Below are positions 1 to 52,866 of a stretch of DNA of 64,000 nt, one piece after another (position 1 is the stretch's first letter; each line of letters opens with the position of its first letter). The translations under genes were made by a program, and so were the position numbers. The notes under the pieces were generated by a model. The model did no database searches. It was not told the origin of the DNA and saw only the letters and a program-made list of their open reading frames with translations. This DNA comes from a virus: IMG/VR virus record IMGVR_UViG_3300030104_003924, positions 15,495-79,494 of that record; one strand, 5' to 3'.

Positions 1-1398
1 GACGGTGTTACAGTAGCAGAATCTGTAGTCTTATTTGACCCGGTTGAGAATATGGGTGCTACCCTTATTAAAGAAGCTGCTAAAAATACAGTGAGAGAAG
101 CAGGTGACGGTACTACTACAGCTACTGTTCTTGCTGAATCTTTGTTAAAACAGGTTAATAATCGCGAAAAAAGCGTGACTATTAGAGAAGTGAAAGATGG
201 TATTAAATCATGTTTCACAAAAGTAAACGATTACCTTGATAAGATTTCTGTCAAGATCGAAGGCGATATGCTCGAATCTGTTAGTTCAATTAGTTGCAAT
301 AATGACGCGGAACTAGGAAAGATTATAGCAGAAGCTTATACTAAAGTAGGTAAAGATGGTGTGGTGTTAATGGAAGAGTCACCAACTGAAGAAACATATG
401 TCGAAATTGTAGATGGTGTGCAAATAGACTCAGGACTCACATCTCCACATTTTATTACTGATAAGGACAAGCAGATAGCAGAACTTGATAACCCATTAGT
501 ATTGATAGTTGGATCAGAAATCCCTAACATAAGAAAAATACAAAAAATATTAGAGCACGTTATAAAAAACAAACGTTCTTTATTAATTGTAGCTCCAGTA
601 GAGCAGCAGGTTAAAGCCGCTCTTCTTATGAACAAAGTAAAAGGTAATATTAAAGTTAATATAATTGACTTACCAGGCTTTGGTCCTACTAAAAAAGATA
701 CTGTTGATGATTTTGCGTTTTTAACAGGAGCAACAGTAATAAACGAAGAACTCGGTGATGATTTAGATTTAATTGATGTTAGTTGTTTAGGAGAGGCTCA
801 TACGGCTATAACAAAAGAAAATAACACTGTATTAACTATAGATACTCCACACTTAGAAATAGAAGAAAGAATTAAGAGTATACAAAAGTTAATCGATAAG
901 GAAGATAAAAATCCTTTTTTAAAAAAGAAACACCAACAAAGGTTAGCAATGCTATCAGGAAGTGTTGGTATTATAAAAGTAGGCGCTGATTCTAAAGTTG
1001 AATTAAAAGAAAAGAAAGATAGAGTAGAAGATGCTATTTATGCTACAAAAGCAGCTTTAAAAGAAGGGATTGTTCCAGGAGGTGGTGTAGCTCTTATAAA
1101 TGCTTCTCAAAAAATTTCAACCGACTCCGTCGGTGAAGAGATACTTCTCAAGGCTATTCAAGCTCCTTTCTATACTGTGCTAGAAAACGCGAGTATCACT
1201 CATCCAGATTATGATGATATAGAAGGAGAAGGTATAGACGTTGTTACGGGAGAAAAAGTTGATATGATTGAAGCTGGAATAATAGATCCGGTTTTGGTTA
1301 CAAAATCGGCGCTAAAAAATGCAGTAAGCGTAGTATCAACAATAATATCTGCAGATTGTGTAATTTCAAATATGAGAATGAATGAAAGCAATCAATAG
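1..1398 (+). CDS. groEL: Chaperonin GroEL (5'-truncated by window edge)
   Basis: The frame is open from base 1 (DGVTVAESVVLFDPVENMGA...). Contains the GDGTTTATVLA ATP-binding motif, KKDRVEDA, GIVPGGG and IIDP. No GGM tail. Confidence 0.97.
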   Translation, partial: DGVTVAESVVLFDPVENMGATLIKEAAKNTVREAGDGTTTATVLAESLLKQVNNREKSVTIREVKDGIKSCFTKVNDYLDKISVKIEGDMLESVSSISCNNDAELGKIIAEAYTKVGKDGVVLMEESPTEETYVEIVDGVQIDSGLTSPHFITDKDKQIAELDNPLVLIVGSEIPNIRKIQKILEHVIKNKRSLLIVAPVEQQVKAALLMNKVKGNIKVNIIDLPGFGPTKKDTVDDFAFLTGATVINEELGDDLDLIDVSCLGEAHTAITKENNTVLTIDTPHLEIEERIKSIQKLIDKEDKNPFLKKKHQQRLAMLSGSVGIIKVGADSKVELKEKKDRVEDAIYATKAALKEGIVPGGGVALINASQKISTDSVGEEILLKAIQAPFYTVLENASITHPDYDDIEGEGIDVVTGEKVDMIEAGIIDPVLVTKSALKNAVSVVSTIISADCVISNMRMNESNQ

Positions 1399-3751: not shown

Positions 3752-4066
3752 ATGCCAAATTTTCCAAAAAACACAGATTATAAAATGAAAGGATCTACCT
3801 TTTATGGCCACGGAAACTCATCACCAGCAAAAGTAAGTGATGACAAAGTGGTTGCAGCGCAAAAAAATCTTGACGAAATACAACTTAAGTTTAATGAACC
3901 AGGTTGGGCTAAAGCTGCTAGAGGTATACACGAAGGCGCTAAGGGAGTTGTTAGTAAATTTATGAATCAAGATCCAGACGAAGACGGCAGTGAGACAGAA
4001 AATCAAATGGATTCAGTAGAGGATATAGCCGCGAACAATATGGATATAGAAGGTGAATTAGAATAA
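3752..4066 (+). CDS. SPxK-leader protein with acidic C-terminus
   Basis: YKMKGSTFYGHGNSSPAK near the N-terminus. Confidence 0.7.
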   Translation: MPNFPKNTDYKMKGSTFYGHGNSSPAKVSDDKVVAAQKNLDEIQLKFNEPGWAKAARGIHEGAKGVVSKFMNQDPDEDGSETENQMDSVEDIAANNMDIEGELE

Positions 4067-4067
4067 T

Positions 4068-4433
4068 ATGTTTAAACTACCAAAACAAAATCATAGAAAA
4101 GTAACTAAAGGACGTTTTTCTCATTTTAATGAAGAAGCATCTCCTGGTACACCTTTGTATAGAAAAAAACTAGATCAAAGTATACAGGCGGAAGCTAATG
4201 ACGATGGCACTATATTTATAGATGTGTCTGTAGAGCCTGGAAGCGCACAAGAGAGACAAATTTTAGCTCATGAAATGAGACATCTTGTTGATATGAAAAC
4301 TGGTAAATTAAGATACGATGACAATTGGATAAAGTATAACGGTATGGAATATCCAAGAAAAAACGGATTTATATTATATGAAGGAGAATGGGTACCAGAA
4401 GGAGGAAAACAATTCCCTTGGGAGCAACATTAA
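4068..4433 (+). CDS. Small zincin-like metallopeptidase (HExxH)
   Basis: ANDDGTIFID strand followed by ILAHEMRH helix and a C-terminal PWE (candidate third ligand). Confidence 0.75.
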   Translation: MFKLPKQNHRKVTKGRFSHFNEEASPGTPLYRKKLDQSIQAEANDDGTIFIDVSVEPGSAQERQILAHEMRHLVDMKTGKLRYDDNWIKYNGMEYPRKNGFILYEGEWVPEGGKQFPWEQH

Positions 4434-4439
4434 AAACAT

Positions 4440-4673
4440 ATGTGGAAGTTATTTAAAGATAAGAACGATATAAATGAAAAGAATGTAGTTGGTTTTATAT
4501 CTTTCGCTGTAATGGTATTATTTGCCATTATAGACTTAGCTACAGCTATTATATACATGGGATACGTAGGGGGTGGAGAACTAGAAATTAACGACACAAT
4601 ATATAATTCGTTTGTAATGGTAACATTAGGTTGCTTTGGCATTAGTGCATTTGAAAAAGTAAAAAAGAAATAA
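4440..4673 (+). CDS. Small 2-TM membrane protein (holin-like)
   Basis: Two hydrophobic segments and a basic C-terminus FEKVKKK. Confidence 0.6.
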   Translation: MWKLFKDKNDINEKNVVGFISFAVMVLFAIIDLATAIIYMGYVGGGELEINDTIYNSFVMVTLGCFGISAFEKVKKK

Positions 4674-4675
4674 CT

Positions 4676-4912
4676 ATGGGATACAAAATGAATGGATTTT
4701 CTGGTTTCGGTAATTCCCCAGCAAAACAAAGTGCAGATAAAAAAGCAACACAAGTTATAGATGGTGTTCTATGTGATGCTTATGGAAGACCAATTGATCC
4801 AAAGAAAAAATGGGAGGCTAATACAGTTCAAAATTACAAAGGTCCTGGTGGTAGAAACGATTCTAACAAAGTAATGAGAGGTCAAAATTTTAGACCAACA
4901 ACAACAATTTAA
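4676..4912 (+). CDS. SPxK-leader small basic protein
   Basis: Starts MGYKMNGFSGFGNSPAKQ. Confidence 0.75.
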   Translation: MGYKMNGFSGFGNSPAKQSADKKATQVIDGVLCDAYGRPIDPKKKWEANTVQNYKGPGGRNDSNKVMRGQNFRPTTTI

Positions 4913-4924
4913 AAAAAATAGATT

Positions 4925-5410
4925 ATGGGATACAAAATGAAAGGGTTTAGCGGATTTGGAAACTCTCCAGCAAAACAAAAAAAAGACACTACAAGAACAT
5001 ATCCACCAAGCTATACTAAAGAAGATATAAAGTTTTTAAAAGAACAACGCGAAGACGTTGTTAGATATGAAGATCTAGACGAGAAAGGTAAAGCTATATG
5101 GAGAAAACAAGGTAAACCAGTACCTAAAAAGAAAAAATCTCCAGCTAAACAAGAGGGGCCAATAGATAAAAAACAGATTAAATTACAACCATCTGAACAT
5201 AAAGACACTTGGGTGTACGATCCAACTAAAGATGATAAATCATCTGCTTATAGGAAGAGAACAGAAAGAATCATAGATCTAGAAGAGAGAATTGGTTTTA
5301 TTGATGAAGATGCTAATGCTTCTGGTAAACCTTTAACAAAACAACAAAAGAAAGATCAAGCTAAACTAAGACAAGAATTAGCAATATTAAGAAAATCTAA
5401 ACATAAATAA
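4925..5410 (+). CDS. SPxK-leader basic protein with a second internal SPAKQ
   Basis: Starts MGYKMKGFSGFGNSPAKQ and has an internal KKKSPAKQ. Confidence 0.78.
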   Translation: MGYKMKGFSGFGNSPAKQKKDTTRTYPPSYTKEDIKFLKEQREDVVRYEDLDEKGKAIWRKQGKPVPKKKKSPAKQEGPIDKKQIKLQPSEHKDTWVYDPTKDDKSSAYRKRTERIIDLEERIGFIDEDANASGKPLTKQQKKDQAKLRQELAILRKSKHK

Positions 5411-5411
5411 T

Positions 5412-5822
5412 ATGTCATATAAAATGAAAGGTTTTAGCGGATTTAAAGGATCTCCAGCTAAACAGAAAAAAAAGAAAGGTGGAGATGAATTTGGTAAAAT
5501 TAAAAAAGGAGAATATCCTAATTTAGTAGAAGACCAAAGTAAAGTTCAGAAAGATAAAAAAGGACTTTTCACAACTGGAATTGGTGATCATGGTCATCAT
5601 AGTGTAACTGACACAACTAGATATCCTCAAGGATTCTCTGATTGGCAAGGAGAGATAAAAGAAGGTAATTATATAGATGAGACAACTCACGAGGCTTGGG
5701 GCGGTGTAGATGTTGAAGATCATTCTGAAAAAGCAAATAAAGAAGGTCAAAAAGCTACTGGTAAAAGAAAAGTTTATAATAAGAAAACTGGCAAGTACGA
5801 GGACTATAAAAAGAAAAAATAA
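5412..5822 (+). CDS. SPxK-leader basic protein
   Basis: Starts MSYKMKGFSGFKGSPAKQ. Confidence 0.75.
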   Translation: MSYKMKGFSGFKGSPAKQKKKKGGDEFGKIKKGEYPNLVEDQSKVQKDKKGLFTTGIGDHGHHSVTDTTRYPQGFSDWQGEIKEGNYIDETTHEAWGGVDVEDHSEKANKEGQKATGKRKVYNKKTGKYEDYKKKK

Positions 5823-6208
5823 TGTTAGGACAATTGTTTTCAGGAGGAGCTGCTGATTTAGTAAAAGGTATAGGAGGCGTTGTAGATAATCTACACACGT
5901 CAGCTGAAGAAAAACTAGAAGCAGAAAGAAAAATAAAAGAATTAATTGCTAACTACGAGGTTGAAATGGAGAAAAACATTACAGCTAGATGGGAGGCAGA
6001 TTTAAAATCAGATTCATGGCTTAGTAAAAATGTTAGGCCACTAGTATTAATATTTTTAATAGTATGCACCATGCTATTAATATTTATAGACGCAGGTGCA
6101 TTAAAATTTGAAGTTAAATCATCATGGGTTGACTTACTTCAATTAGTATTAATAACTGTGATCGGCGCGTATTTTGGCGGACGATCTTTTGAAAAAGTAA
6201 AAAAATAA
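5822..6208 (+). CDS. Holin (3TM-holin-like)
   Basis: Amphipathic N-terminus, coiled coil, SDSWLSKNVRP, two TM helices, GAYFGGRSFEK. Confidence 0.75.
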   Translation: MLGQLFSGGAADLVKGIGGVVDNLHTSAEEKLEAERKIKELIANYEVEMEKNITARWEADLKSDSWLSKNVRPLVLIFLIVCTMLLIFIDAGALKFEVKSSWVDLLQLVLITVIGAYFGGRSFEKVKK

Positions 6209-7914: not shown

Positions 7915-8110
7915 TGTAGGTAAAGACTACAAGAACGACGCTATGCACTACGCTGTTGGCCAAGAAGTTTATGGTGGACACACTATTTGTGATATATTAG
8001 AAGAAGACGACAAGTATTCTATTTACATAAAAAAGAACAAAGATGTGTTACCTTGGAAAGACTTCAATAAAAACATGGCTGTGTCTATAGAATATAATCT
8101 TGAATACTAA
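7889..8110 (+). CDS. Hypothetical protein
   Basis: 73 aa, overlapping and coupled to both neighbours. Confidence 0.65.
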   Translation: MAKLIRKISVGKDYKNDAMHYAVGQEVYGGHTICDILEEDDKYSIYIKKNKDVLPWKDFNKNMAVSIEYNLEY

Positions 8111-8700
8111 TGAAGAGTGTTTACAACTTTGTTGTAACGCCAAAAGGAAAAAGATATAATAACACTAAAAAAGTTGGAGATTCAGAGTTAATACTTAACA
8201 CAGAGATATTCAACCATCAATATGTAAATAAAGAAGCAATAGTTATATCAACTCCAATTATTGGTGATACAAATATAAAAGCTGGAGATACAGTTATTGT
8301 TCATCATAACATATTTCGTAGGTGGCACAACGTAAAAGGTATTGAGAAGAATAGTAGATCATATTTCAATGAAGATACTTATTTTATAAACCACGATCAA
8401 ATCTTTTTATACAAAAGAAATGACAAGTGGATAGCTCCAAAAGGTTATTGTTTTATAAAACCTTTAAAAGCTGTAGATCAATTTAATATTGAATCTGAAA
8501 AACCATTACAAGGTATTGTAAAGTACTCAGACGGCACAATAGAGATTGGAGATTTAGTAGGATATGTACCAAGGACTCAATCTGAGTTTATCGTAGATGG
8601 AGAAAGATTATATAGAGTTTTATCAAATTTAATTACAATCAAATATGAATATCAAGGAAACGAAGAAGAATATAATCCAAGCTGGGCAAAGAGCAGTTGA
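8110..8700 (+). CDS. Divergent GroES-like (tandem co-chaperonin-fold) protein
   Basis: Two repeats of V.P...G/A.V...I..GD.V (FVVTP...IKAGDTVIV and FIKP...GIVKY...IEIGDLVGY...LYRV). Confidence 0.55.
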   Translation: MKSVYNFVVTPKGKRYNNTKKVGDSELILNTEIFNHQYVNKEAIVISTPIIGDTNIKAGDTVIVHHNIFRRWHNVKGIEKNSRSYFNEDTYFINHDQIFLYKRNDKWIAPKGYCFIKPLKAVDQFNIESEKPLQGIVKYSDGTIEIGDLVGYVPRTQSEFIVDGERLYRVLSNLITIKYEYQGNEEEYNPSWAKSS

Positions 8701-11139: not shown

Positions 11140-13539
11140 ATGTCAACATTTAAAAATCGTAATTTCCCGAGTCAAGTAGTGAGTGATGTAGAGAAGATTA
11201 GCTACGAGTATGGTTTAAAAGTTGCGAAAGCTATAGAGGCAGAGTGGTTTGAAGAAAATACCACGTCTAACAGATGGAAAAATAATCATAACGACTTTCA
11301 CAATTTAAGATTATACGCTAGGGGAGAGCAATCTATTCAAAAATATAAAGATGAATTATCTATCAATGGTGATTTATCCTATTTAAATTTAGATTGGAAA
11401 CCAGTTCCTATCATACCTAAATTCGTAGATATTCTAGTGAATGGTATGACACAGAGAAATTATGACATAAAGGCTTATTCTCAAGATCCTTATGGCGTTG
11501 GTAGAAGAACTGCTTATATGGACGCTATATTAAAAGACATGCGTGCTAAAGAGTTAAACGATTACGTTAAACAAGCATTTAGTATAAATTTATATAGTAG
11601 TGATCCAGAAGAACTTCCACAAACAGAAGAAGAATTAAAGCTGCACATGCAATTGACATATAAGCAAAGTGTTGAATTAGCAGAAGAACAAGCATTAAAT
11701 ACTTTATTCGAAGGTAATAATTACGATTTAACTAGAAAACGTTTTTATTATGATTTAGCCGTTCTTGGAATTGGCGCTGTAAAAACCTCATTTAACACCT
11801 CTGAAGGTGTTGTTATAGATTATGTCGATCCTGCTAATCTAGTTTACTCTCACACAGATTCTCCTTATTTTGATGATATATATTACGTTGGTGAAGTTAA
11901 AACTATTCCTATAAATGAATTGGTTAAGCAATTTCCGTTTTTAGAAAATGAAGATATTGAAGAAATATTAAATACTAAAACTTACAATAGAGGTAATTAT
12001 AATAGATTAAACTCTTTAGACAACGAAGATAATAATAAAGTTCAAGTTTTATATTTTAATTATAAAACTTATATGAACGAAGTTTATAAAGTTAAGCAAA
12101 CAGGTAGTGGTTCTGAAAGAGCAATACAAAAAGATGATACTTTTAACCCACCAGAAGGAATGGAAGGAGGATATAGTAAAGTTGCTAGATCTATAGAATG
12201 TCTTTACGATGGGGCTATAATTCTTGGCACCGATAAATTACTTAAGTGGGAGATGGCAAAAAATATGCTACGTCCAAAAAGTGATTTTACTAAAGTGAAA
12301 ATGAATTATTCTATAGTAGCGCCAAGAATGTATGATGGTAAAATAGAATCTTTAGTTAGTAGAATAACTGGTTTTGCCGACATGATACAGTTGACTCATC
12401 TAAAATTACAACAAGTATTATCTAGAATGGTTCCTGATGGTGTTTATATGGATGCAGATGGTTTAGCTGAAATAGATTTAGGTAATGGTACGAATTACAA
12501 TCCACAAGAAGCGTTAAACATGTATTTCCAAACAGGTTCTGTTATCGGTAGATCCTTAACCCAAGAAGGTGATATGAACGCTGGTAAAATGCCGATACAA
12601 GAAATATCAGGTGGTCAAGGTGCTGGAAATAAAATGCAAGCGCTTATAGGTAATTACAATTATTACTTACAAATGATAAGAGATGTAACCGGACTTAACG
12701 AAGCTAGAGACGGTAGTAATCCTGATAAGTATTCTTTATTAGGTGTGCAAAAGCTAGCGGCAGCAAACTCAAATGTGGCAACTAGACATGTCTTACAATC
12801 CGGGTTATTCTTAACAGCCTCTGTGGCTGAATGTTTATCACTTAGAATATCAGATATATTAGAGTACTCTCCAACTAGAGAGGCGTTTATAAGAAGTATC
12901 GGGATGCATAATGTCGCTACTCTACAAGAAATAAGTGAATTACACTTATATGATTTTGGTATATTCATAGAGTTAGCTCCTGACGAAGAAGAAAAACAAA
13001 TGTTAGAAAACAACATACAAATGGCCCTTCAACAACAAAGTATTGATTTAGAAGATGCTATTGATCTTAGAGAGATTAAAAGTGTAAAGTTAGCTAATCA
13101 AGTTCTTAAAATAAGAAGAAAAAAGAAACTAGAACGAGATCAACAAATGCAACAAGAAAACATGCGGGCTCAAGCTGAAGCAAATGCACAACAACAACAA
13201 GCAGCTGCTCAAGCCGAAGTTCAAAAACAACAAGCGTTAACACAATCTCAAATATCATTAGAACAAGCTAAAGCTCAAATGGCTTCTCAAACTTTAGTTC
13301 AAGAAACTGAAATGAAAAAACAATTAATGGAAATAGAGTTTGGTTATGATATGCAGTTAAAAAGAGCTGATGTAGATAATGCTAACCAAAAAGAAACGGA
13401 AAAAGAAAACCGTAAAGACGAAAGAACTAGAATTCAAGCAACTCAACAAAGTGAGATGATTGATCAAAGAAATAACCAAAAACCAGCTAAAAACTTTGAA
13501 ACTCCAAGTGATGATATGATGGAGGGTTTTAGTCTTTAG
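11140..13539 (+). CDS. Portal protein
   Basis: 799 aa after terL. PIIPKFVD, DVTGLNEARDG and a Gln-rich C-terminal barrel helix typical of podoviral portals. Confidence 0.88.
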   Translation: MSTFKNRNFPSQVVSDVEKISYEYGLKVAKAIEAEWFEENTTSNRWKNNHNDFHNLRLYARGEQSIQKYKDELSINGDLSYLNLDWKPVPIIPKFVDILVNGMTQRNYDIKAYSQDPYGVGRRTAYMDAILKDMRAKELNDYVKQAFSINLYSSDPEELPQTEEELKLHMQLTYKQSVELAEEQALNTLFEGNNYDLTRKRFYYDLAVLGIGAVKTSFNTSEGVVIDYVDPANLVYSHTDSPYFDDIYYVGEVKTIPINELVKQFPFLENEDIEEILNTKTYNRGNYNRLNSLDNEDNNKVQVLYFNYKTYMNEVYKVKQTGSGSERAIQKDDTFNPPEGMEGGYSKVARSIECLYDGAIILGTDKLLKWEMAKNMLRPKSDFTKVKMNYSIVAPRMYDGKIESLVSRITGFADMIQLTHLKLQQVLSRMVPDGVYMDADGLAEIDLGNGTNYNPQEALNMYFQTGSVIGRSLTQEGDMNAGKMPIQEISGGQGAGNKMQALIGNYNYYLQMIRDVTGLNEARDGSNPDKYSLLGVQKLAAANSNVATRHVLQSGLFLTASVAECLSLRISDILEYSPTREAFIRSIGMHNVATLQEISELHLYDFGIFIELAPDEEEKQMLENNIQMALQQQSIDLEDAIDLREIKSVKLANQVLKIRRKKKLERDQQMQQENMRAQAEANAQQQQAAAQAEVQKQQALTQSQISLEQAKAQMASQTLVQETEMKKQLMEIEFGYDMQLKRADVDNANQKETEKENRKDERTRIQATQQSEMIDQRNNQKPAKNFETPSDDMMEGFSL

Positions 13540-13574
13540 GATGTAAAATTTATTAACTATTATTATATTATATT

Positions 13575-14825
13575 ATGGCAGAAAAAGAAGAAGGACCAAT
13601 CGTAGATAACGAAGTTGGTTCATTAAAAGTAAAAGAAAAAACAGAAAAACAACCAGATGGCAACGAAACTAAAGGTGATGTTACCAAGGTTAAAGAAAAA
13701 ATGAAAATGAAATCACAAGTTATTGAGGAGTCAGTGACTAAAATTGATTTAAACAAACCAACAAAACCAGAAGAAAATGAAACTAAAAAAGATAACACTA
13801 ACGACAAGGGAGTGGTTGGAGAGTCTAAAGACACCAACACCTCACAAGAACAAAAAGAAGTACAGTCGAAAGCAGAAGCACAAGAAGCTCCAGTTTTAGA
13901 AGAAATAACTTCAACTGAAGAAACAAAAGAAGAAGTTGTTGAATCTACACCTGAAGAAGTTATAGAGACTATTAAAGAGGCGGAAGCGACTGGAGAACCT
14001 TTACCAGAAAATATACAAAAACTTGTAAACTTTATGAGTGAAACTGGTGGAGATTTAAATGATTACGTTAAACTTAATCAAGACTATAGTGAGTTAGACA
14101 ATCAAGATTTACTATATGAATATTATAAACAAACAAAACCTCATTTAAATGCAGAAGAAATTAACTTCCTTATGGAAGATCAATTCTCTTACGACGAGGA
14201 TAGAGACGAAGAGAAAGATATTAAAAGAAAAAAATTAGCGTTAAAAGAGCAAGTTGCCAACGCTAAAAGCCACCTGGACGGGCTAAAGTCCAAATACTAT
14301 GAAGATATCAAAGCTGGATCGAAACTCACGAGTGAGCAACAGAAAGCAATTGATTTCTTTAATAGATACAATGAAGAAGAGGCAAAAAACAAAGAGGGTA
14401 ACGAGAAAAGAGTATCTAATTTTAAAGAAAAAACTAAAAATGTTTTTAATGATAAATTCAAAGGTTTTGAATATAGCATAGGAGACAAAAGGTTTAGATA
14501 CAACGTTCAAGATGCAGAAAAAGTTAAAGACACTCAAAGCGACATAAGTAATTTTATCGGAAAGTTTCTTGATAAAGATCAAAATATGAACGATGCTGAG
14601 GGTTATCATAAATCGCTTTTTACAGCAATGAATCCTGACGCTATTGCCAAACACTTCTACGAACAAGGCCAAGCTGATGCTTTAAGAGAAAGCGTTGCTA
14701 AAGGTAAAAATATTGACATGGAACCTAGGCAAGCACACGGTGAAGTACAAGCTGGTGGAGTTAAAGTTAGAGTGTTAGGTGATGACACTTCTGATTTCAA
14801 GTTTAAAATTAAAAATAAAAAATAA
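13575..14825 (+). CDS. Capsid scaffolding protein
   Basis: Acidic low-complexity N-terminus, helical C-terminus, lies between portal and capsid. Confidence 0.7.
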   Translation: MAEKEEGPIVDNEVGSLKVKEKTEKQPDGNETKGDVTKVKEKMKMKSQVIEESVTKIDLNKPTKPEENETKKDNTNDKGVVGESKDTNTSQEQKEVQSKAEAQEAPVLEEITSTEETKEEVVESTPEEVIETIKEAEATGEPLPENIQKLVNFMSETGGDLNDYVKLNQDYSELDNQDLLYEYYKQTKPHLNAEEINFLMEDQFSYDEDRDEEKDIKRKKLALKEQVANAKSHLDGLKSKYYEDIKAGSKLTSEQQKAIDFFNRYNEEEAKNKEGNEKRVSNFKEKTKNVFNDKFKGFEYSIGDKRFRYNVQDAEKVKDTQSDISNFIGKFLDKDQNMNDAEGYHKSLFTAMNPDAIAKHFYEQGQADALRESVAKGKNIDMEPRQAHGEVQAGGVKVRVLGDDTSDFKFKIKNKK

Positions 14826-14844
14826 CAATTAAAATTACAAAATT

Positions 14845-16356
14845 ATGGCAATTACTGCAGGAACTAGTTTGAATAGTGTGCCAGCTCCAAAGAAGCAAAC
14901 ACTAGCTACAAACTATCTAGACCTTTCATCTGCGTCAAACGCAGGTTGGGGACAACAATATGTACCAGATCTAATGGAGAAAGAAGCTGAGGTATTTGGT
15001 CCTAGGACTATATCTGGTTTCCTTTCGCAAGTTGGAGCTGAAGAAGCGATGCAAGCTGATCAAGTTATTTGGTCTGAGCAAGGTCGTTTACACTTATCAT
15101 ACAAAGCTTACGTAAGTTCCGCTTCTGGTGGTGCTAACGCGGGTACTGGTGGTACTTCCGTTATTACGGTAGAAAAAGATATCGATGGTATCGCTATTTC
15201 TAGTGATGGTCACGGTATTAGAGTTAACGATATGATTATAGTATCTGATACAACTAATGGTATCGTTAAATGTTTAGTTACAGCTGTATCAGCTACAACA
15301 GTTGATGTTTTACCTTACGACCTTGGTGCTGCTAATTTAGGCACAACAACTTCAGAGCAAACAACTATATTAGTTTTTGGTTCTGAATTCGGTAAAGGTG
15401 CAAGCTATCCTGATGGAGGTGCGGCTACTACTTCTAGTGATTCTAGAGGTGCTAACGAGCCAAGATTTACTACTTTCACAAACAAACCAATTATAATGAA
15501 AGATTACTACGAAGTATCAGGTTCTGATGTTTCTAAAATCGGTTGGGTTGAAATCGCTGCTGAAGATGGTACTTCTGGTTACTTATGGTACTTAAAAGCT
15601 GAGTCTGACACTAGAGCACGTTTTAATGACTATATTGAAATGGCAATGATTGAATCTGAGAAAAACGATGCTTCATCTTTAGTTGACAACTCGATTAACT
15701 TAGGTTCTACTGGAACTGGTACTGGTGCTGCTGGTACTGAAGGTTTATTCGCTGCTGTTGAATCAAGAGGTAACTTAACTTCTGGTATTACTGGTGTTAA
15801 CGCTGCTACTGATTTAGCTGAGTTCGATGCTATCTTAGCTGAGTTTGATAATCAAGGTGCTATTGAAGAAAACATGATGTTCGTTAATAGAGCTACGTCT
15901 CTAGCAATGGATGACATGCTAGCTTCTATGAATTCTTACGGCGCTGGTGGTACTTCTTATGGAGTATTCAACAACTCTGAAGATATGGCTTTAAACTTAG
16001 GTTTCTCTGGATTCCGAAGAGGTTCTTATGACTTCTACAAATCTGACTTCAGATACTTAAATGACAAGGCTACAAGAGGTGGAATTAATGCTGCTAGTAC
16101 TGCTAACGCTACTAGAGGTATAATGATTCCAGCTGGTACTTCTACTGTTTATGACCAAATGTTAGGGAAAAACTTAAAACGTCCGTTCTTACACGTTCGT
16201 TATAGAGCTTCTCAAACTGATGACAGAAGAATGAAAACTTGGACAACTGGTTCTGTTGGAGCTGCTACATCCGCTTTAGATGCGATGCAAATCCACATGT
16301 TAACTGAAAGATGTTTAATTACTCAAGGTGCTAACAACTTCATGTTATTGAAGTAA
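14845..16356 (+). CDS. Major capsid protein
   Basis: 503 aa after the scaffold, strongly biased codons (gct/ggt/act), followed by a terminator. Confidence 0.88.
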   Translation: MAITAGTSLNSVPAPKKQTLATNYLDLSSASNAGWGQQYVPDLMEKEAEVFGPRTISGFLSQVGAEEAMQADQVIWSEQGRLHLSYKAYVSSASGGANAGTGGTSVITVEKDIDGIAISSDGHGIRVNDMIIVSDTTNGIVKCLVTAVSATTVDVLPYDLGAANLGTTTSEQTTILVFGSEFGKGASYPDGGAATTSSDSRGANEPRFTTFTNKPIIMKDYYEVSGSDVSKIGWVEIAAEDGTSGYLWYLKAESDTRARFNDYIEMAMIESEKNDASSLVDNSINLGSTGTGTGAAGTEGLFAAVESRGNLTSGITGVNAATDLAEFDAILAEFDNQGAIEENMMFVNRATSLAMDDMLASMNSYGAGGTSYGVFNNSEDMALNLGFSGFRRGSYDFYKSDFRYLNDKATRGGINAASTANATRGIMIPAGTSTVYDQMLGKNLKRPFLHVRYRASQTDDRRMKTWTTGSVGAATSALDAMQIHMLTERCLITQGANNFMLLK

Positions 16357-50252: not shown

Positions 50253-50813
50253 ATGGGATTACTTATTCAAAAAATACCTGATGGAAGTAAAACAGAAATA
50301 GCTTTAAACACCGACAGTTTCAGGTCTATGATTTTTACTAATACTCACGCAACGGATGCCGTTACTATAGATCTTTGGTTAACCGATTTATCAGGAGATA
50401 ATGTTGTTACAACTGGAGTTTATGTAAATAACGGTAGTGGTTATACTAGTGCGCCGGGAACAGCGATGACAATGGCTGTTGATAATGGAGCTGGTGGTTC
50501 TTCTGCAGCTACTGATGATATGTTCAACAGTGAAAAGGTTTACAAGTCTGATGGTACCCATATAGGCACATGTACTGAAGCTCTTAGTAGTACATCCTTA
50601 AGTTTTGCTAACGGATTAGTTAAATTGGTTGCAGATAACACCATTTTATATGTTGGGCAAAAATATTACATTTATAACAACGTTGTTATACCAAATGGAG
50701 CTTCTTTACAATTAACAGACCACGAAATTGACTATAATAATAATAATTACAATTTATATATAGAATCTAGTAATGCTAGTGGATATATAGATATAATAAC
50801 TACAACAATATGA
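50253..50813 (+). CDS. Hypothetical virion protein
   Basis: FTNTHATDAVTIDLW and VVIPNGASLQL flank an inserted module. Confidence 0.55.
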   Translation: MGLLIQKIPDGSKTEIALNTDSFRSMIFTNTHATDAVTIDLWLTDLSGDNVVTTGVYVNNGSGYTSAPGTAMTMAVDNGAGGSSAATDDMFNSEKVYKSDGTHIGTCTEALSSTSLSFANGLVKLVADNTILYVGQKYYIYNNVVIPNGASLQLTDHEIDYNNNNYNLYIESSNASGYIDIITTTI

Positions 50814-51265
50814 TAAGTAAACATGTAAGTTACAAAGAGGGTGTTTATAGTAACACTGCTTTAAGAAGAGGTATAGACAATACTCCTACGGATGACCATC
50901 TTCATTTTATGGAGTTAATTGCTGAAAATATATTTGAACCTCTTAGGCAACACGTAGGAGGACCAATAAAGATTAACAGTTTTTATAGATCGCCAGAATT
51001 AAACACGGCAATTGGTGGGTCTAAGACTTCACAACACTGCAAGGGTCAAGCTATGGATATTGACGATACTTTTGGGGTTATGACTAACGCTGAAATGTAT
51101 AAGTTTATAAAAGAAAATTTAAACTTTGATCAAATGATATGGGAGTTTGGGGACGACGAAAACCCTAACTGGGTTCATGTTAGTTATGTGTCATCTGAAA
51201 AAAATAGAAATAGATGCTTAAAAGCGTATAAAGAAAATGGTAAAACTAAATACATGGTAATATGA
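50810..51265 (+). CDS. Endolysin, peptidase M15A family
   Basis: INSFYRS.ELN.AIGGS..SQHCKGQAMDID...FDQMIWE...WVHVSY. Confidence 0.9.
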   Translation: MISKHVSYKEGVYSNTALRRGIDNTPTDDHLHFMELIAENIFEPLRQHVGGPIKINSFYRSPELNTAIGGSKTSQHCKGQAMDIDDTFGVMTNAEMYKFIKENLNFDQMIWEFGDDENPNWVHVSYVSSEKNRNRCLKAYKENGKTKYMVI

Positions 51266-51759
51266 GTTTCAAAATGAAAGGTTGGAGTGGGTACCAAAAT
51301 TCACCATTAAATAAAAAAGAAAGCTTTAAGCCTCATAATATGTATGATAAAAAAAAGGCTGAAACATATAAAGAGCATTTAGATTTAAAAGAAAAAGGCT
51401 ATGGCCACAGTCCTATGAAAGAAAAATCTTGTAACTGTTGGAAGGGTTATAGTAGAGTTCCTGGAACAAAACCTTGTGCTCCTGGTAGTTGTAAAAAATC
51501 TTCTCCAGCCAAACAAACAAATAAAAGAACAAAGGGTAAAGGGAGACATTTTAGAACGTCAGAAGAAGGGGCTGGTATGACTAAGGCTGGTGTTACTTCT
51601 TATAAATCTCAAAACCCAGGTAGTAAATTAAAAACAGCTGTAACTGGTAAGGTTAAACCTGGTAGCAAGGCTGCTGGAAGAAGAAAATCATTTTGTGCTA
51701 GGTCTAAAGGTTGGACCGGCGAAAGAGGTAAGGCCGCTAGAGCAAGATGGAAATGTTAA
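51262..51759 (+). CDS. SPxK-leader modular basic protein (CWKGY and RRKSFCAR modules)
   Basis: MSFKMKGWSGYQNSPLNK...GHSPMKE...KSSPAKQ...RRKSFCARSKGW...RWKC. Confidence 0.75.
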   Translation: MSFKMKGWSGYQNSPLNKKESFKPHNMYDKKKAETYKEHLDLKEKGYGHSPMKEKSCNCWKGYSRVPGTKPCAPGSCKKSSPAKQTNKRTKGKGRHFRTSEEGAGMTKAGVTSYKSQNPGSKLKTAVTGKVKPGSKAAGRRKSFCARSKGWTGERGKAARARWKC

Positions 51760-52446: not shown

Positions 52447-52866
52447 TTAAAGTCTATAAGATACACCTAATCTAAATTCCCCCTCTCTATTACCTTCAGC
52501 GTCTTCTTTTACAGGCATCACGTAATAAGGGTCAACGTATAATTTTTTCCACACGTTGAAAGAGTATCCTAATCCTAATTCTAACTTGTCTTTCATTTCT
52601 GCTTCAGAATCTTTTTCGTGATTATACACACAAGTAGCCCACACGCCATTGTATACATCATATCTACCGAACAATTCATAAGCGTCTTCACCGTCCATAG
52701 ATGCGCCTACCATTAACTTTTCGTTAACTACGTAACCAACACCTATTTTATCAGTGACGTTCCAAGTTGAATCAGTCCCTTCATTTAAAGTTGTTAATCC
52801 TACAAATTGAGCAGATGCTAAAGTTGTAGACACAGCAAACAACATTGTTAAAAATAGTTTGTTCAT
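52447..52866 (-). CDS. Small outer-membrane beta-barrel-like protein
   Basis: Signal peptide ...ASA|Q. Strands IGVGY, LFGRY, LGLGYSF, YVDPYY and terminal FRLGVSYRL. Confidence 0.7.
   Translation of the reverse strand: MNKLFLTMLFAVSTTLASAQFVGLTTLNEGTDSTWNVTDKIGVGYVVNEKLMVGASMDGEDAYELFGRYDVYNGVWATCVYNHEKDSEAEMKDKLELGLGYSFNVWKKLYVDPYYVMPVKEDAEGNREGEFRLGVSYRL

What the first reader, a model, noticed from the sequence alone, without database searches (positions are those of the whole stretch)
51262..51759. SPxK motifs separate independent modules, suggesting a polyprotein
Seen: after the leader (…NSPLNK) come three distinct blocks separated by HSPMK and SSPAK: an FKPH…HLDLKEKGYGH block, a Cys block (CNCWKGYSRVPG…GSC), and a RRKSFCAR…WKC block. 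ORF 4925 also has a second SPAKQ between two blocks. From memory, CWKGY and RRKSFCAR blocks occur as mix-and-match modules in other aquatic phages. Inference: SPxK marks cleavage sites that release several small basic peptides from one precursor.
Basis: partly seen in the sequence, partly recalled or inferred. Interest (0 to 1): 0.75.

Follow-up and report, generated by a model that had tools for sequence, protein, structure and literature searches.

The report
Ser-Pro-x-Lys joints between shuffled phage modules
A small, very basic late protein of an uncultured marine phage is a string of three independently shuffled mini-modules, each fronted by a Ser-Pro-x-Lys joint; these joints look like processing sites for proteins carried in the phage head, but no cutting has been shown.

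Summary
Window 51262-51759 (+) encodes a 165-aa protein (pI 10.3, charge about +32). It has a leader, block A (FKPH...KGYGH), Cys block B and a C-terminal DUF6321 module, with SPLN(K), SPMK and SPAK at the three joints. The motif is not chance: shuffle p about 8.5e-4, and 15 SP.K in this genome's leader-family ORFs (1.0 expected) against 1 elsewhere.

In 120 close relatives the modules occur alone, in other orders and with other partners. [ST]PxK is about 70 times denser in linkers than inside modules. Homology breakpoints lie a median 4.5 aa from a motif (23.5 aa at random).

Cleavage is not demonstrated. The best indirect support is comparative. In T4-like cyanophages the same B and C modules are flanked by [ILV]-x-E, the T4 head-protease motif, and some metagenomic relatives with the same modules carry T4 targeting-type N-termini. 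One such protein is annotated as a virion protein. This genome has no S77, S78 or S49 head protease, but its lineage has a leader-tagged mini-zincin.

Main rival: uncut linkers of histone-H1 (SPKK) type.

The scan noted similar SP[ILV]K-fronted modules before on other genomes. I found no publication on them.

The parts
51262..51759 (+). Target ORF: 165 aa, pI 10.3, net charge about +32. Last gene of the rightward late operon.
   Evidence: more than 8,000 relatives
51262..51315 (+). Leader, aa 1-18 (MSFKMKGWSGYQNSPLNK), ending in the first Ser-Pro motif (SPLNK, nt 51301-51315).
   Evidence: The leader is shared with at least 10 ORFs of this genome. pLDDT is below 50 at aa 7-18.
51316..51408 (+). 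Module A, aa 19-49 (KESFKPHNMYDKKKAETYKEHLDLKEKGYGH): hairpin plus helix.
   Evidence: It occurs without B and/or C and with other partners (P0028, P0187, P0275, P0277, P0280). Model.
51409..51420 (+). Joint 1: SPMK (aa 50-53).
   Evidence: pLDDT below 50 at aa 52-54
51421..51501 (+). Module B, aa 54-80: Cys block (EKS)CNCWKGYSRVPGTKPCAPGSCKKS, a beta-hairpin.
   Evidence: It is found as the terminal module ending GSCKK[NDS] without SPxK (P0272-P0274, P0285). It is also found behind a T4 CTS-like leader (P0283, 88% identical). Model.
51502..51516 (+). Joint 2: SPAKQ (aa 81-85).
   Evidence: The BLAST query-start histogram peaks at aa 81. Mean pLDDT of aa 81-90 is 58.
51517..51756 (+). Module C, aa 86-165: DUF6321 with its basic N-terminal extension. 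Three helices; invariant C145 and C165.
   Evidence: Pfam PF19846, E 2.4e-9. Stand-alone in HTVC028P gp22, S-CRES3 gp110, HTVC023P gp43. Alignment A1. pLDDT 80-91.
50810..51265 (+). Upstream neighbour: M15 peptidase endolysin, translationally coupled to the target ORF (ATGA overlap).
   Evidence: An M15 homolog lies within the fetched +/-6 kb flanks in 27 of 80 related loci.
3752..5822 (+). Cluster of paralogous leader-bearing ORFs (3752-4066, 4676-4912, 4925-5410, 5412-5822). In about half of the relatives the DUF6321 gene sits in this kind of cluster.
4068..4433 (+). Mini-zincin-like HExxH protein (HEMRH ... PWE). Its homologs carry the same MAFK[LM] leader. Candidate processing enzyme.
   Evidence: Pfam eCIS_core E 3.5e-4 and M91 E 1.5e-3, both below their cut-offs. 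Alignment A2. Fold matches proabylysin (Z 5.8) and selecase (Z 5.4). Present in 36 of 80 loci. Absent from 50,697 isolate phage records.

Best explanation
The ORF encodes a leader-tagged, three-module, strongly basic late protein. It belongs to a large pool of small modules that marine phages shuffle: A, the Cys hairpin B, DUF6321 and others. It is most likely packaged inside the capsid as internal or ejected cargo.

The Ser-Pro-x-Lys motif is a lineage-specific connector at the front of every module and at the end of the shared N-terminal leader. The most likely role is a processing signal. After loading, a protease would remove the leader (about 2.1 kDa) and separate the modules into basic peptides of about 4.2, 3.4 and 8.6 kDa. 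The candidate enzyme is the leader-tagged mini-zincin of this lineage. This would be the counterpart of the [ILV]-x-E sites that flank the same modules in T4-like phages.

Shown here: modularity, the link between motif and boundary, lineage co-variation of leader, joint motif and protease type, and disorder at the joints. Inferred: packaging, cleavage, the enzyme, and DNA binding by the products.
For: (1) Module boundaries coincide with the motif. The query-start histogram peaks at aa 12-20, 48-59 and 78-84. [ST]P.[KNQR] density is 2.49 per 100 aa in linkers and 0.035 inside modules. Homology breakpoints lie within 5 aa of a motif in 53% of cases against 13% at random.

(2) Modules occur in changed order and combination with SPxK at each joint (L006/P0020 E-D-B-C, P0007 A-B-D-C, P0273 A-D-B). 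When B is the last module the protein ends at GSCKK[NDS] with no SPxK, so the motif belongs to the joint.

(3) The AF2 model has confident modules, and pLDDT dips at the three motifs.

(4) Lineage swap. In 37 of 41 proteins of another lineage, the last Glu before the DUF6321 extension has I/L/V/M at P3. Among the non-SPxK proteins, 28 B modules have [ILVF]xE within 12 aa upstream. Some metagenomic relatives have T4 CTS-like N-termini (MKSFTEFREE, MSFKDFLKE directly before the same B module). All 4 T4-like cyanophages examined encode an S77 protease; this genome has none. T4 gp21 specificity (I/L-x-E) and the CTS are established knowledge.

(5) S-SCSM1_29 (517 aa, B-type module plus C-terminal DUF6321, E 1.4e-24) is annotated 'virion protein' in a phage whose virion proteome was measured by MS (PMC9602691).

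(6) DUF6321 genes sit in head or packaging regions in many phages: next to TerL, portal or capsid genes, or between the terminase subunits.

(7) A mini-zincin that carries the same leader co-occurs with the SPxK lineage.
Against: No cleavage product or virion proteome exists for this lineage. The genome is rated 100% complete by CheckV but has no S77, S78 or S49 prohead protease, and nothing in the head module matches a protease in Pfam. The zincin assignment rests on sub-threshold Pfam scores and modest fold Z values of 5-6, and 2 of 26 homologs lack the first His.

Some relatives have SPxK motifs only 3-5 aa apart (L009 ORF with 8 copies, L020 84-aa ORF). That looks like histone-H1-type repeats rather than sites that bracket modules. 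Some homologs lost the motif at a joint yet stay fused (P0013, P0023, P0024). Stand-alone DUF6321 proteins of pelagiphages have neither leader nor SPxK.

Low pLDDT at the motifs is equally expected for plain linkers. The many homologs are related, so the counts are not independent events.
Confidence: 0.4

Rival explanations
1. The protein stays intact as a multi-domain DNA-binding or DNA-condensing protein. The Lys-rich Ser-Pro-x-Lys segments are flexible linkers of the histone H1 / SPKK type, beta-turns that bind the minor groove of AT-rich DNA. Modules are shuffled by recombination in the linkers and nothing is cut.
For: Internal motifs sit in Lys-rich context (K at 19-39% of positions -5 to -1). 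Some family members are almost pure repeats (MAKKSPAKMAKKSPMKK...; SPAKKYKSPAKAHCKSPAKQ). The genome is 34.5% G+C. The protein has net charge about +32. The joints are predicted disordered. No canonical head protease was found.
Against: Position 3 of the motif is usually A/L/M/V/Y, not basic as in SPKK. In T4-like lineages the same modules are joined by acidic [ILV]xE linkers that would not bind DNA, so DNA binding by the connector is not a conserved need. The motif also ends a conserved leader placed on non-basic cargo such as the HExxH proteins. Pfam finds no H1-like family in the repeat proteins.
Confidence: 0.3
2. The motif has no function of its own. It is an inherited linker and recombination scar: short conserved coding stretches (TCTCCAGCTAAACAA) at which illegitimate or micro-homology recombination swaps cassettes.
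For: Breakpoints of similarity fall at the motif. The commonest DNA form of SPAKQ recurs 5 times in this genome.
Against: Copies differ at synonymous sites, and the shared DNA form is what codon bias in a 35% G+C genome predicts. The variable position x (A, L, M, V, Y, N, T) with fixed S, P and K points to selection on the peptide. 12-15 nt is too short for homologous recombination.
Confidence: 0.12
3. A lysis accessory. Because it is translationally coupled to the endolysin, the cationic protein or its peptides permeabilise the outer membrane, like the cationic 'disruptin' reported for phage phiKT (recalled, not searched here).
For: The ATGA overlap with the M15 endolysin gene. An M15 homolog lies within the fetched flanks in 27 of 80 related loci. 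Endolysin genes lie within about 1.5 kb in HTVC028P, S-CRES3 and L010, and overlap the hit region in MW202825.
Against: In about 40 of 80 relatives and in several isolates the gene lies in the head or packaging region far from lysis genes. A DUF6321 protein is annotated as a virion protein. No amphipathic or membrane-active feature was tested.
Confidence: 0.08

Closest known systems
Phage T4 capsid-targeting sequence (CTS) on internal proteins IPI, IPII, IPIII and Alt, removed by prohead protease gp21 (peptidase S77) at I/L-x-E
   Same: A short shared N-terminal leader sits on many unrelated, mostly small basic late proteins. The motif that ends the leader also recurs inside the proteins. The very same B and DUF6321 modules occur behind CTS-like leaders and [ILV]xE joints in S77-encoding cyanophages and in metagenomic relatives.
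   Different: The leader (M-x-F/Y-K-M-K-G...SPxK) and the joint motif are unrelated in sequence. The host phage is a Flavobacteriia-type podovirus relative without S77, S78 or S49 protease. Packaging and cleavage are untested.
Adenovirus core-protein precursors pVII and pX (Mu), cut by the adenovirus protease inside the capsid
   Same: Concept only: very basic small peptides released from precursors at a short consensus site inside a DNA-filled capsid (established knowledge).
   Different: A eukaryotic virus with a cysteine protease. No sequence or fold relation was tested or expected.
S/T-P-K-K (SPKK, SPXX) minor-groove-binding motifs of histone H1 and sea-urchin sperm H2B (Suzuki 1989, recalled)
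   Same: Ser-Pro-x-Lys in Lys-rich disordered segments, tandemly repeated in some family members, in an AT-rich genome.
   Different: Position 3 is usually hydrophobic or small, not basic. The motif marks module fronts and the end of a conserved leader. DNA binding is untested.
Pfam DUF6321 (PF19846)
   Same: The C-terminal module is a member (E 2.4e-9, 38.1 bits against a cut-off of 28.5).
   Different: The family has no known function or solved fold (no paper; no PDB fold match). Here it is the short variant that lacks the insertion between CARS and RRRWKC.
Minigluzincins (proabylysin, projannalysin, selecase)
   Same: The neighbouring-cluster HExxH protein of about 100-120 aa has a beta-sheet plus active-site helix. 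Its best fold matches are these enzymes (Z 5.0-5.8; 22-30% identity over about 60 residues).
   Different: The C-terminal half is a beta-rich subdomain with an invariant PWE, not the helical lower subdomain. Scores are modest. Activity and substrate are unknown.

Membership tests
Pfam DUF6321 (PF19846) | Match to the family HMM above the gathering score | tested here: met
   aa 103-154, E 2.4e-9, 38.1 bits against a cut-off of 28.5. Invariant G120, L123, R140, C145, R147, W163 and C165 in alignment A1.
Polyprotein / multi-core precursor | Segments are independent units that occur separately elsewhere | tested here: met
   A, B and C occur alone, in other orders and with other partners.
Polyprotein / multi-core precursor | A conserved short motif at every junction | tested here: met
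   Met within this clade: about 70-fold enrichment in linkers and breakpoints at the motif. Not conserved in distant lineages, which use other joints.
Polyprotein / multi-core precursor | A cognate protease encoded or available | tested here: inconclusive
   No S77, S78 or S49 protease (positive control for S77). A leader-tagged zincin-like HExxH protein is a candidate only.
Polyprotein / multi-core precursor | Cleavage products observed | not testable with these tools
   Needs mass spectrometry of virions or infected cells.
T4-type CTS / gp21 cargo system | N-terminal CTS of the type M-K-x-[YF]-x-E-F-[IL]-x-E | tested here: not met
   The query starts MSFKMKGWSGYQNSPLNK. CTS-like N-termini are seen only in relatives of other lineages.
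T4-type CTS / gp21 cargo system | S77 prohead protease in the genome | tested here: not met
   No PF03420 match in G000, which CheckV rates 100% complete. The same search finds it in 4 of 4 T4-like cyanophages.
SPKK / S(T)PXX DNA-binding motif | Ser/Thr-Pro followed by two basic residues | tested here: not met
   The query motifs are SPLN, SPMK and SPAK. Position 3 is A 45%, V 9%, M 8% in internal copies.
SPKK / S(T)PXX DNA-binding motif | Binding to the AT-rich minor groove | not testable with these tools
   Needs band-shift or footprinting assays.

The most novel reading that the evidence does not exclude
A head-cargo processing system of a new type in podovirus-like marine phages that lack any canonical prohead protease. 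In this reading, a leader (M-x-F-K-M-K-G...SPxK) loads many small proteins, including a mini-zincin, into the capsid. The zincin then cuts at Ser-Pro-x-Lys joints and releases a variable cocktail of small basic peptides (A, Cys hairpin, DUF6321). The same joints serve as the points where phages swap modules.
Probability: 0.3. Interest if true: 0.8.

Novelty: new variant of a known kind. Interest (0 to 1): 0.62.

Why it matters
DUF6321 and its partner mini-modules are among the most widespread unexplained small proteins of marine phages: more than 8,000 near relatives at 90% clustering and 2,238 representatives at 50%. They occur in pelagiphages, cyanophages and Flavobacteriia phages.

If the joints are processing sites, two things follow. 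First, a large share of 'hypothetical' late genes would be read as capsid cargo precursors. Second, different phage lineages would have independently put the same cargo modules under different address-and-cut codes (LxE with an S77 protease, SPxK with another enzyme). That gives a concrete, testable rule for predicting packaged or injected proteins from sequence. It also gives a handle, leader plus joint, for loading foreign proteins into such capsids in laboratory phage work.

Tried and rejected
- Fold of the target protein: Foldseek against PDB gave nothing (best E 8). VIA-align wide gave only generic helical matches, Z at most 3.3. So DUF6321 gets no fold assignment.
- BFVD returned only other DUF6321 proteins.
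- Modules A, B, D and E, the SAYA-type module and the repeat proteins have no Pfam family.
- Literature: no paper mentions DUF6321. Searches on SPKK in phages and on cyanophage virion proteomes gave nothing specific. The held supplement of PMC9602691 does not list the virion proteins. The link between the S-SCSM1_29 'virion protein' label and MS detection therefore rests on the GenBank label plus the paper's text.
- megablast of the region against isolate phages: no match.
- The closest isolate by capsid protein, Maribacter phage Panino (42.5% identity), lacks the whole family, so no isolate with a virion proteome carries it.
- The HExxH protein has no match in 50,697 isolate phage records.
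- Prohead proteases S78, S77 and S49 were not found in the genome, and no protease domain was found in the head-module ORFs.
- A terminator or promoter scan around the ORF gave nothing above chance.
- A pooled count of [ILV]xE in junction windows over all homologs showed no enrichment (1.17 against 1.52 per 100 aa). The signal appears only when the non-SPxK lineage is taken alone and the position is fixed.
- DNA-level conservation of the SPAKQ codons is explained by codon bias.
- Complex prediction, sequencing-run searches and the ESM Atlas were not used.

Full report
**What is there.** Window 51262-51759 (+) is an intact ORF of 165 aa. Its ATG overlaps the stop codon of an M15-peptidase endolysin gene (50810-51265). 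It is the last gene of the rightward late operon; the genes beyond it run on the other strand.

The window belongs to a 79.5-kb virus record, 34.5% G+C, rated 100% complete by CheckV. Its capsid, portal and terminase proteins are related to those of podoviruses of marine Flavobacteriia (Maribacter phage Panino, Flavobacterium 'elemo' phages, Cellulophaga phages).

The protein is extremely basic (32 Lys, 10 Arg; pI 10.3; net charge about +32). It reads as leader (aa 1-18, ending SPLNK), block A (19-49), SPMK (50-53), Cys block B (54-80), SPAKQ (81-85) and block C (86-165). Block C is a Pfam DUF6321 domain (E 2.4e-9).

**The motif is not chance.** Three SP.[KN] in a shuffled sequence of the same composition occur with p about 8.5e-4. 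In the whole genome, 15 SP.K lie in the 1,891 residues of the ORFs that share the leader (1.0 expected from composition). Only one lies in the other 23,335 residues (3.3 expected).

At least ten ORFs of the genome start with M-x-[FY]-K-[ML]-[KR]-[GS]...SP[AL]K[Q]. Five lie just upstream of the window and four at window 3752-5822.

**The blocks are independent modules and the motif marks their borders.** The protein has more than 8,000 relatives at E <= 0.001 in the 90%-clustered collection and 2,238 at 50% clustering.

Among the best 120, the architectures found were C alone, B-C, A-C, A-B-C, A-B-D-C, E-B-C, E-D-B-C, D-B-C, A-B, A and B. D is a KRGLWDNIHAKRKRG module and E an LEKVVxEL module. 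A search with aa 15-86 alone added A-D-B, X-A-B, A or B with a beta-rich C-terminus, and A with other tails.

- BLAST alignments of the query to 268 relatives start preferentially at aa 12-20, 48-59, 78-84 (mode 81, the S of SPAK) and 88-98.
- [ST]P.[KNQR] is 2.49 per 100 aa in inter-module linkers and 0.035 inside modules.
- Local similarity between two family members often stops while both proteins continue. These stops lie within 5 aa of a motif in 53% of cases against 13% for random positions. The median distance is 4.5 aa against 23.5 aa.
- When B is the last module the protein ends at GSCKK[NDS] with no SPxK, so the motif belongs to the joint, or the front of the next module, not to B.
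- Stand-alone DUF6321 proteins begin at the residue equivalent to aa 86-88 (HTVC028P gp22, many metagenomic forms).
- ORF 4925 behaves the same way. Its similarity to relatives ends at aa 75, its second SPAK.

An AlphaFold2 model built on 104 sequences gives three confident units: A, a hairpin plus helix; B, a hairpin; C, three helices with pLDDT 80-91. Confidence dips at aa 7-18, 52-54 and 81-90, which are the three motifs.

**Limits of the motif.** It is lineage-specific. Pelagiphage DUF6321 proteins are single modules with neither leader nor SPxK. Cyanomyovirus proteins join the same modules with other linkers. Panino, the closest isolate by capsid protein, lacks the whole family. Within the clade a few homologs lost the Pro or Ser at a joint but stay fused (P0013, P0023, P0024). 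The leader also occurs internally in some larger ORFs (L020:1146-1931, L014:296-1114).

**Where the gene sits.** In 80 related viral contigs the DUF6321 gene is found in two settings. In one, as here, an M15 endolysin homolog lies within the fetched +/-6 kb flanks (27 loci). In the other it lies inside the variable cluster of leader-bearing small genes between phage GroEL/GroES and the large terminase (about 40 loci). In isolates it lies after the capsid gene (HTVC023P), between the portal and head genes (023Pt_psg01), or next to the terminase genes in T4-like cyanophages: between the small and large subunit genes in S-CRM01 and S-RIM8, and just upstream of terL in ACG-2014f and S-SCSM1. Some copies lie near lysis genes.

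**Comparative evidence on mechanism.** The same B and C modules occur in T4-like phages, but with different punctuation.

- In 41 proteins of that lineage, the last Glu before the DUF6321 extension (M-[KS]-G-M-S...) has I (18), L (9), V (8) or M (2) two residues before it. The upstream partners are diverse.
- Among the non-SPxK proteins, 28 B modules have [ILVF]-x-E within 12 residues upstream. Examples are LGE-LKCW, LDE-LKCW, VDE-ACW, LEE-KGRCW and FLKE-AKSCNCW.
- Several of these proteins begin MKSFTEFREE, MLNFKEWLDEE or MSFKDFLKE. These resemble the T4 capsid-targeting sequence MKTYQEFIAE, which gp21 removes after its last Glu (established knowledge).
- P0283 has such a leader directly in front of a B module 88% identical to the query's.
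- S-RIM8 gp098, ACG-2014f _117 and S-SCSM1_29 are long basic chains of such modules with [ILV]xE at the borders.
- All four T4-like cyanophages checked encode an S77 (gp21-type) protease. The window's genome does not, and it also lacks S78 and S49.

So in two lineages the motif that ends the leader is also the motif at the internal joints, and the motif changes together with the protease repertoire. This is what processing signals predict. It is hard to reconcile with a DNA-binding role of the connector, because the T4-type connectors are acidic.

S-SCSM1_29 carries a full DUF6321 (E 1.4e-24). It is labelled 'virion protein' in the record of a phage whose virion proteome was determined by mass spectrometry: 45 proteins, 13 of unknown function. 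I could not find the protein list itself.

**A candidate enzyme.** Window 4068-4433 encodes a 121-aa HExxH protein.

- Homologs lie within 6 kb of the DUF6321 gene in 36 of 80 loci. They are present in both near-complete contigs tested and absent from all 50,697 isolate phage records.
- The 26 homologs themselves start with the MAFK[LM] leader. They keep E69, H72 and a C-terminal PWE invariant, with H68 in 24 of 26.
- The model (pLDDT 79) matches zincins best: proabylysin Z 5.8, selecase Z 5.4 at 30% identity, ArdC, SPRTN and IrrE.
- Pfam hits (eCIS_core/DUF4157, M91) are just below threshold.

It is a plausible co-packaged protease, but no more than that.

**What speaks for the main rival.** Internal motifs sit in Lys-rich context. 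A few family members are nearly pure repeats with motifs 3-5 residues apart (MAKKSPAKMAKKSPMKK; SPAKKYKSPAKAHCKSPAKQ). This resembles S/TPKK repeats of histone H1 more than sites that bracket modules. Plain linkers would also be disordered. No direct evidence of cutting exists.

**Verdict.** The polyprotein reading is partly supported: modularity and joint motifs are shown, while cleavage is inferred from a lineage swap of joint motif, leader and protease.

| Reading | Probability |
|---|---|
| Processing-site reading | about 0.4 |
| Uncut H1-like linker reading | about 0.3 |
| Neutral recombination-joint reading | about 0.12 |
| Lysis-accessory reading | about 0.08 |

The scan has met SP[ILV]K-fronted shuffled modules before on other genomes (e1-3474609, e1-3509575), and LxE-jointed cyanophage versions as well (e1-5643700, e1-5734486). 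Those notes gave me the lead for the T4-like comparison, which I then tested here. I found no publication on DUF6321 or on these joints.

Noticed in passing
window 4068-4433 (+): Mini-zincin-like HExxH protein (HEMRH, invariant PWE). Its homologs carry the same MAFK[LM] leader as the small basic proteins. Best fold matches are minigluzincins, ArdC, SPRTN and IrrE. It is absent from all isolate phage records.
   Followed up: partly
L004:11799-12845 (genome upstream of the window): A second leader-bearing protein (348 aa, MGFKLRSGNKPNF...SPLRQ) with an HEGTH motif. It is part of a second array of five leader ORFs (G000 11551-15289) just before the phage GroEL gene.
   Followed up: no
P0005, P0019, P0024 and many others; L020:5992-6366: A second, alternative N-terminal leader, MAY-x-QKNNPFPVTSCGRRR (sometimes preceded by MPGSxKQN), replaces the FKMKG leader on the same A, B and C modules in close relatives.
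   Followed up: no
L020:1146-1931, L014:296-1114: The 'leader' (FKMKGFSGFGN..SPAK) also occurs in the middle of larger Ala/Lys-rich ORFs, so it is not strictly N-terminal.
   Followed up: no
L009:2681-3406; L020:7689-7943: Small ORFs made almost entirely of Lys-rich SPxK repeats (8 and 4 copies, some 3-5 aa apart), reminiscent of histone H1 tails.
   Followed up: no
L092:3716-4036 (S-SCSM1_30); L088:3381-3707 (S-RIM8 gp099): In T4-like cyanophages the gene directly after the DUF6321 polyprotein-like gene starts MKTFKQFMSE / MKSYNEFISE, a close match to the T4 capsid-targeting sequence.
   Followed up: no
P0169: A cytidylyltransferase/NMNAT-like enzyme fused through an L-A-E joint to DUF6321. 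NMNAT-like proteins are reported in cyanophage virion proteomes (PMC9602691).
   Followed up: partly
P0176, P0203, P0182: DUF6321 C-termini joined abruptly to cellular-looking N-termini (POTRA-like, response-regulator-like). These are probably metagenome assembly chimeras at this very abundant conserved sequence.
   Followed up: no
window 5822-6208 (+): A three-TM protein with a sub-threshold match to GTA_holin_3TM (E 5e-4). It is conserved next to the leader-protein cluster in 36 of 80 loci, 45 kb away from the endolysin.
   Followed up: no
window 1-1398 and 8110-8700 (+): Phage-encoded GroEL and a GroES-like protein flank the leader-protein cluster. This arrangement is conserved in relatives.
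   Followed up: no
P0279, P0280: The leader plus module A or B is fused to a beta-rich C-terminal domain ending GLKINL/GLKINI, which may be an outer-membrane-type barrel. It was not compared with window ORF 52447-52866.
   Followed up: no
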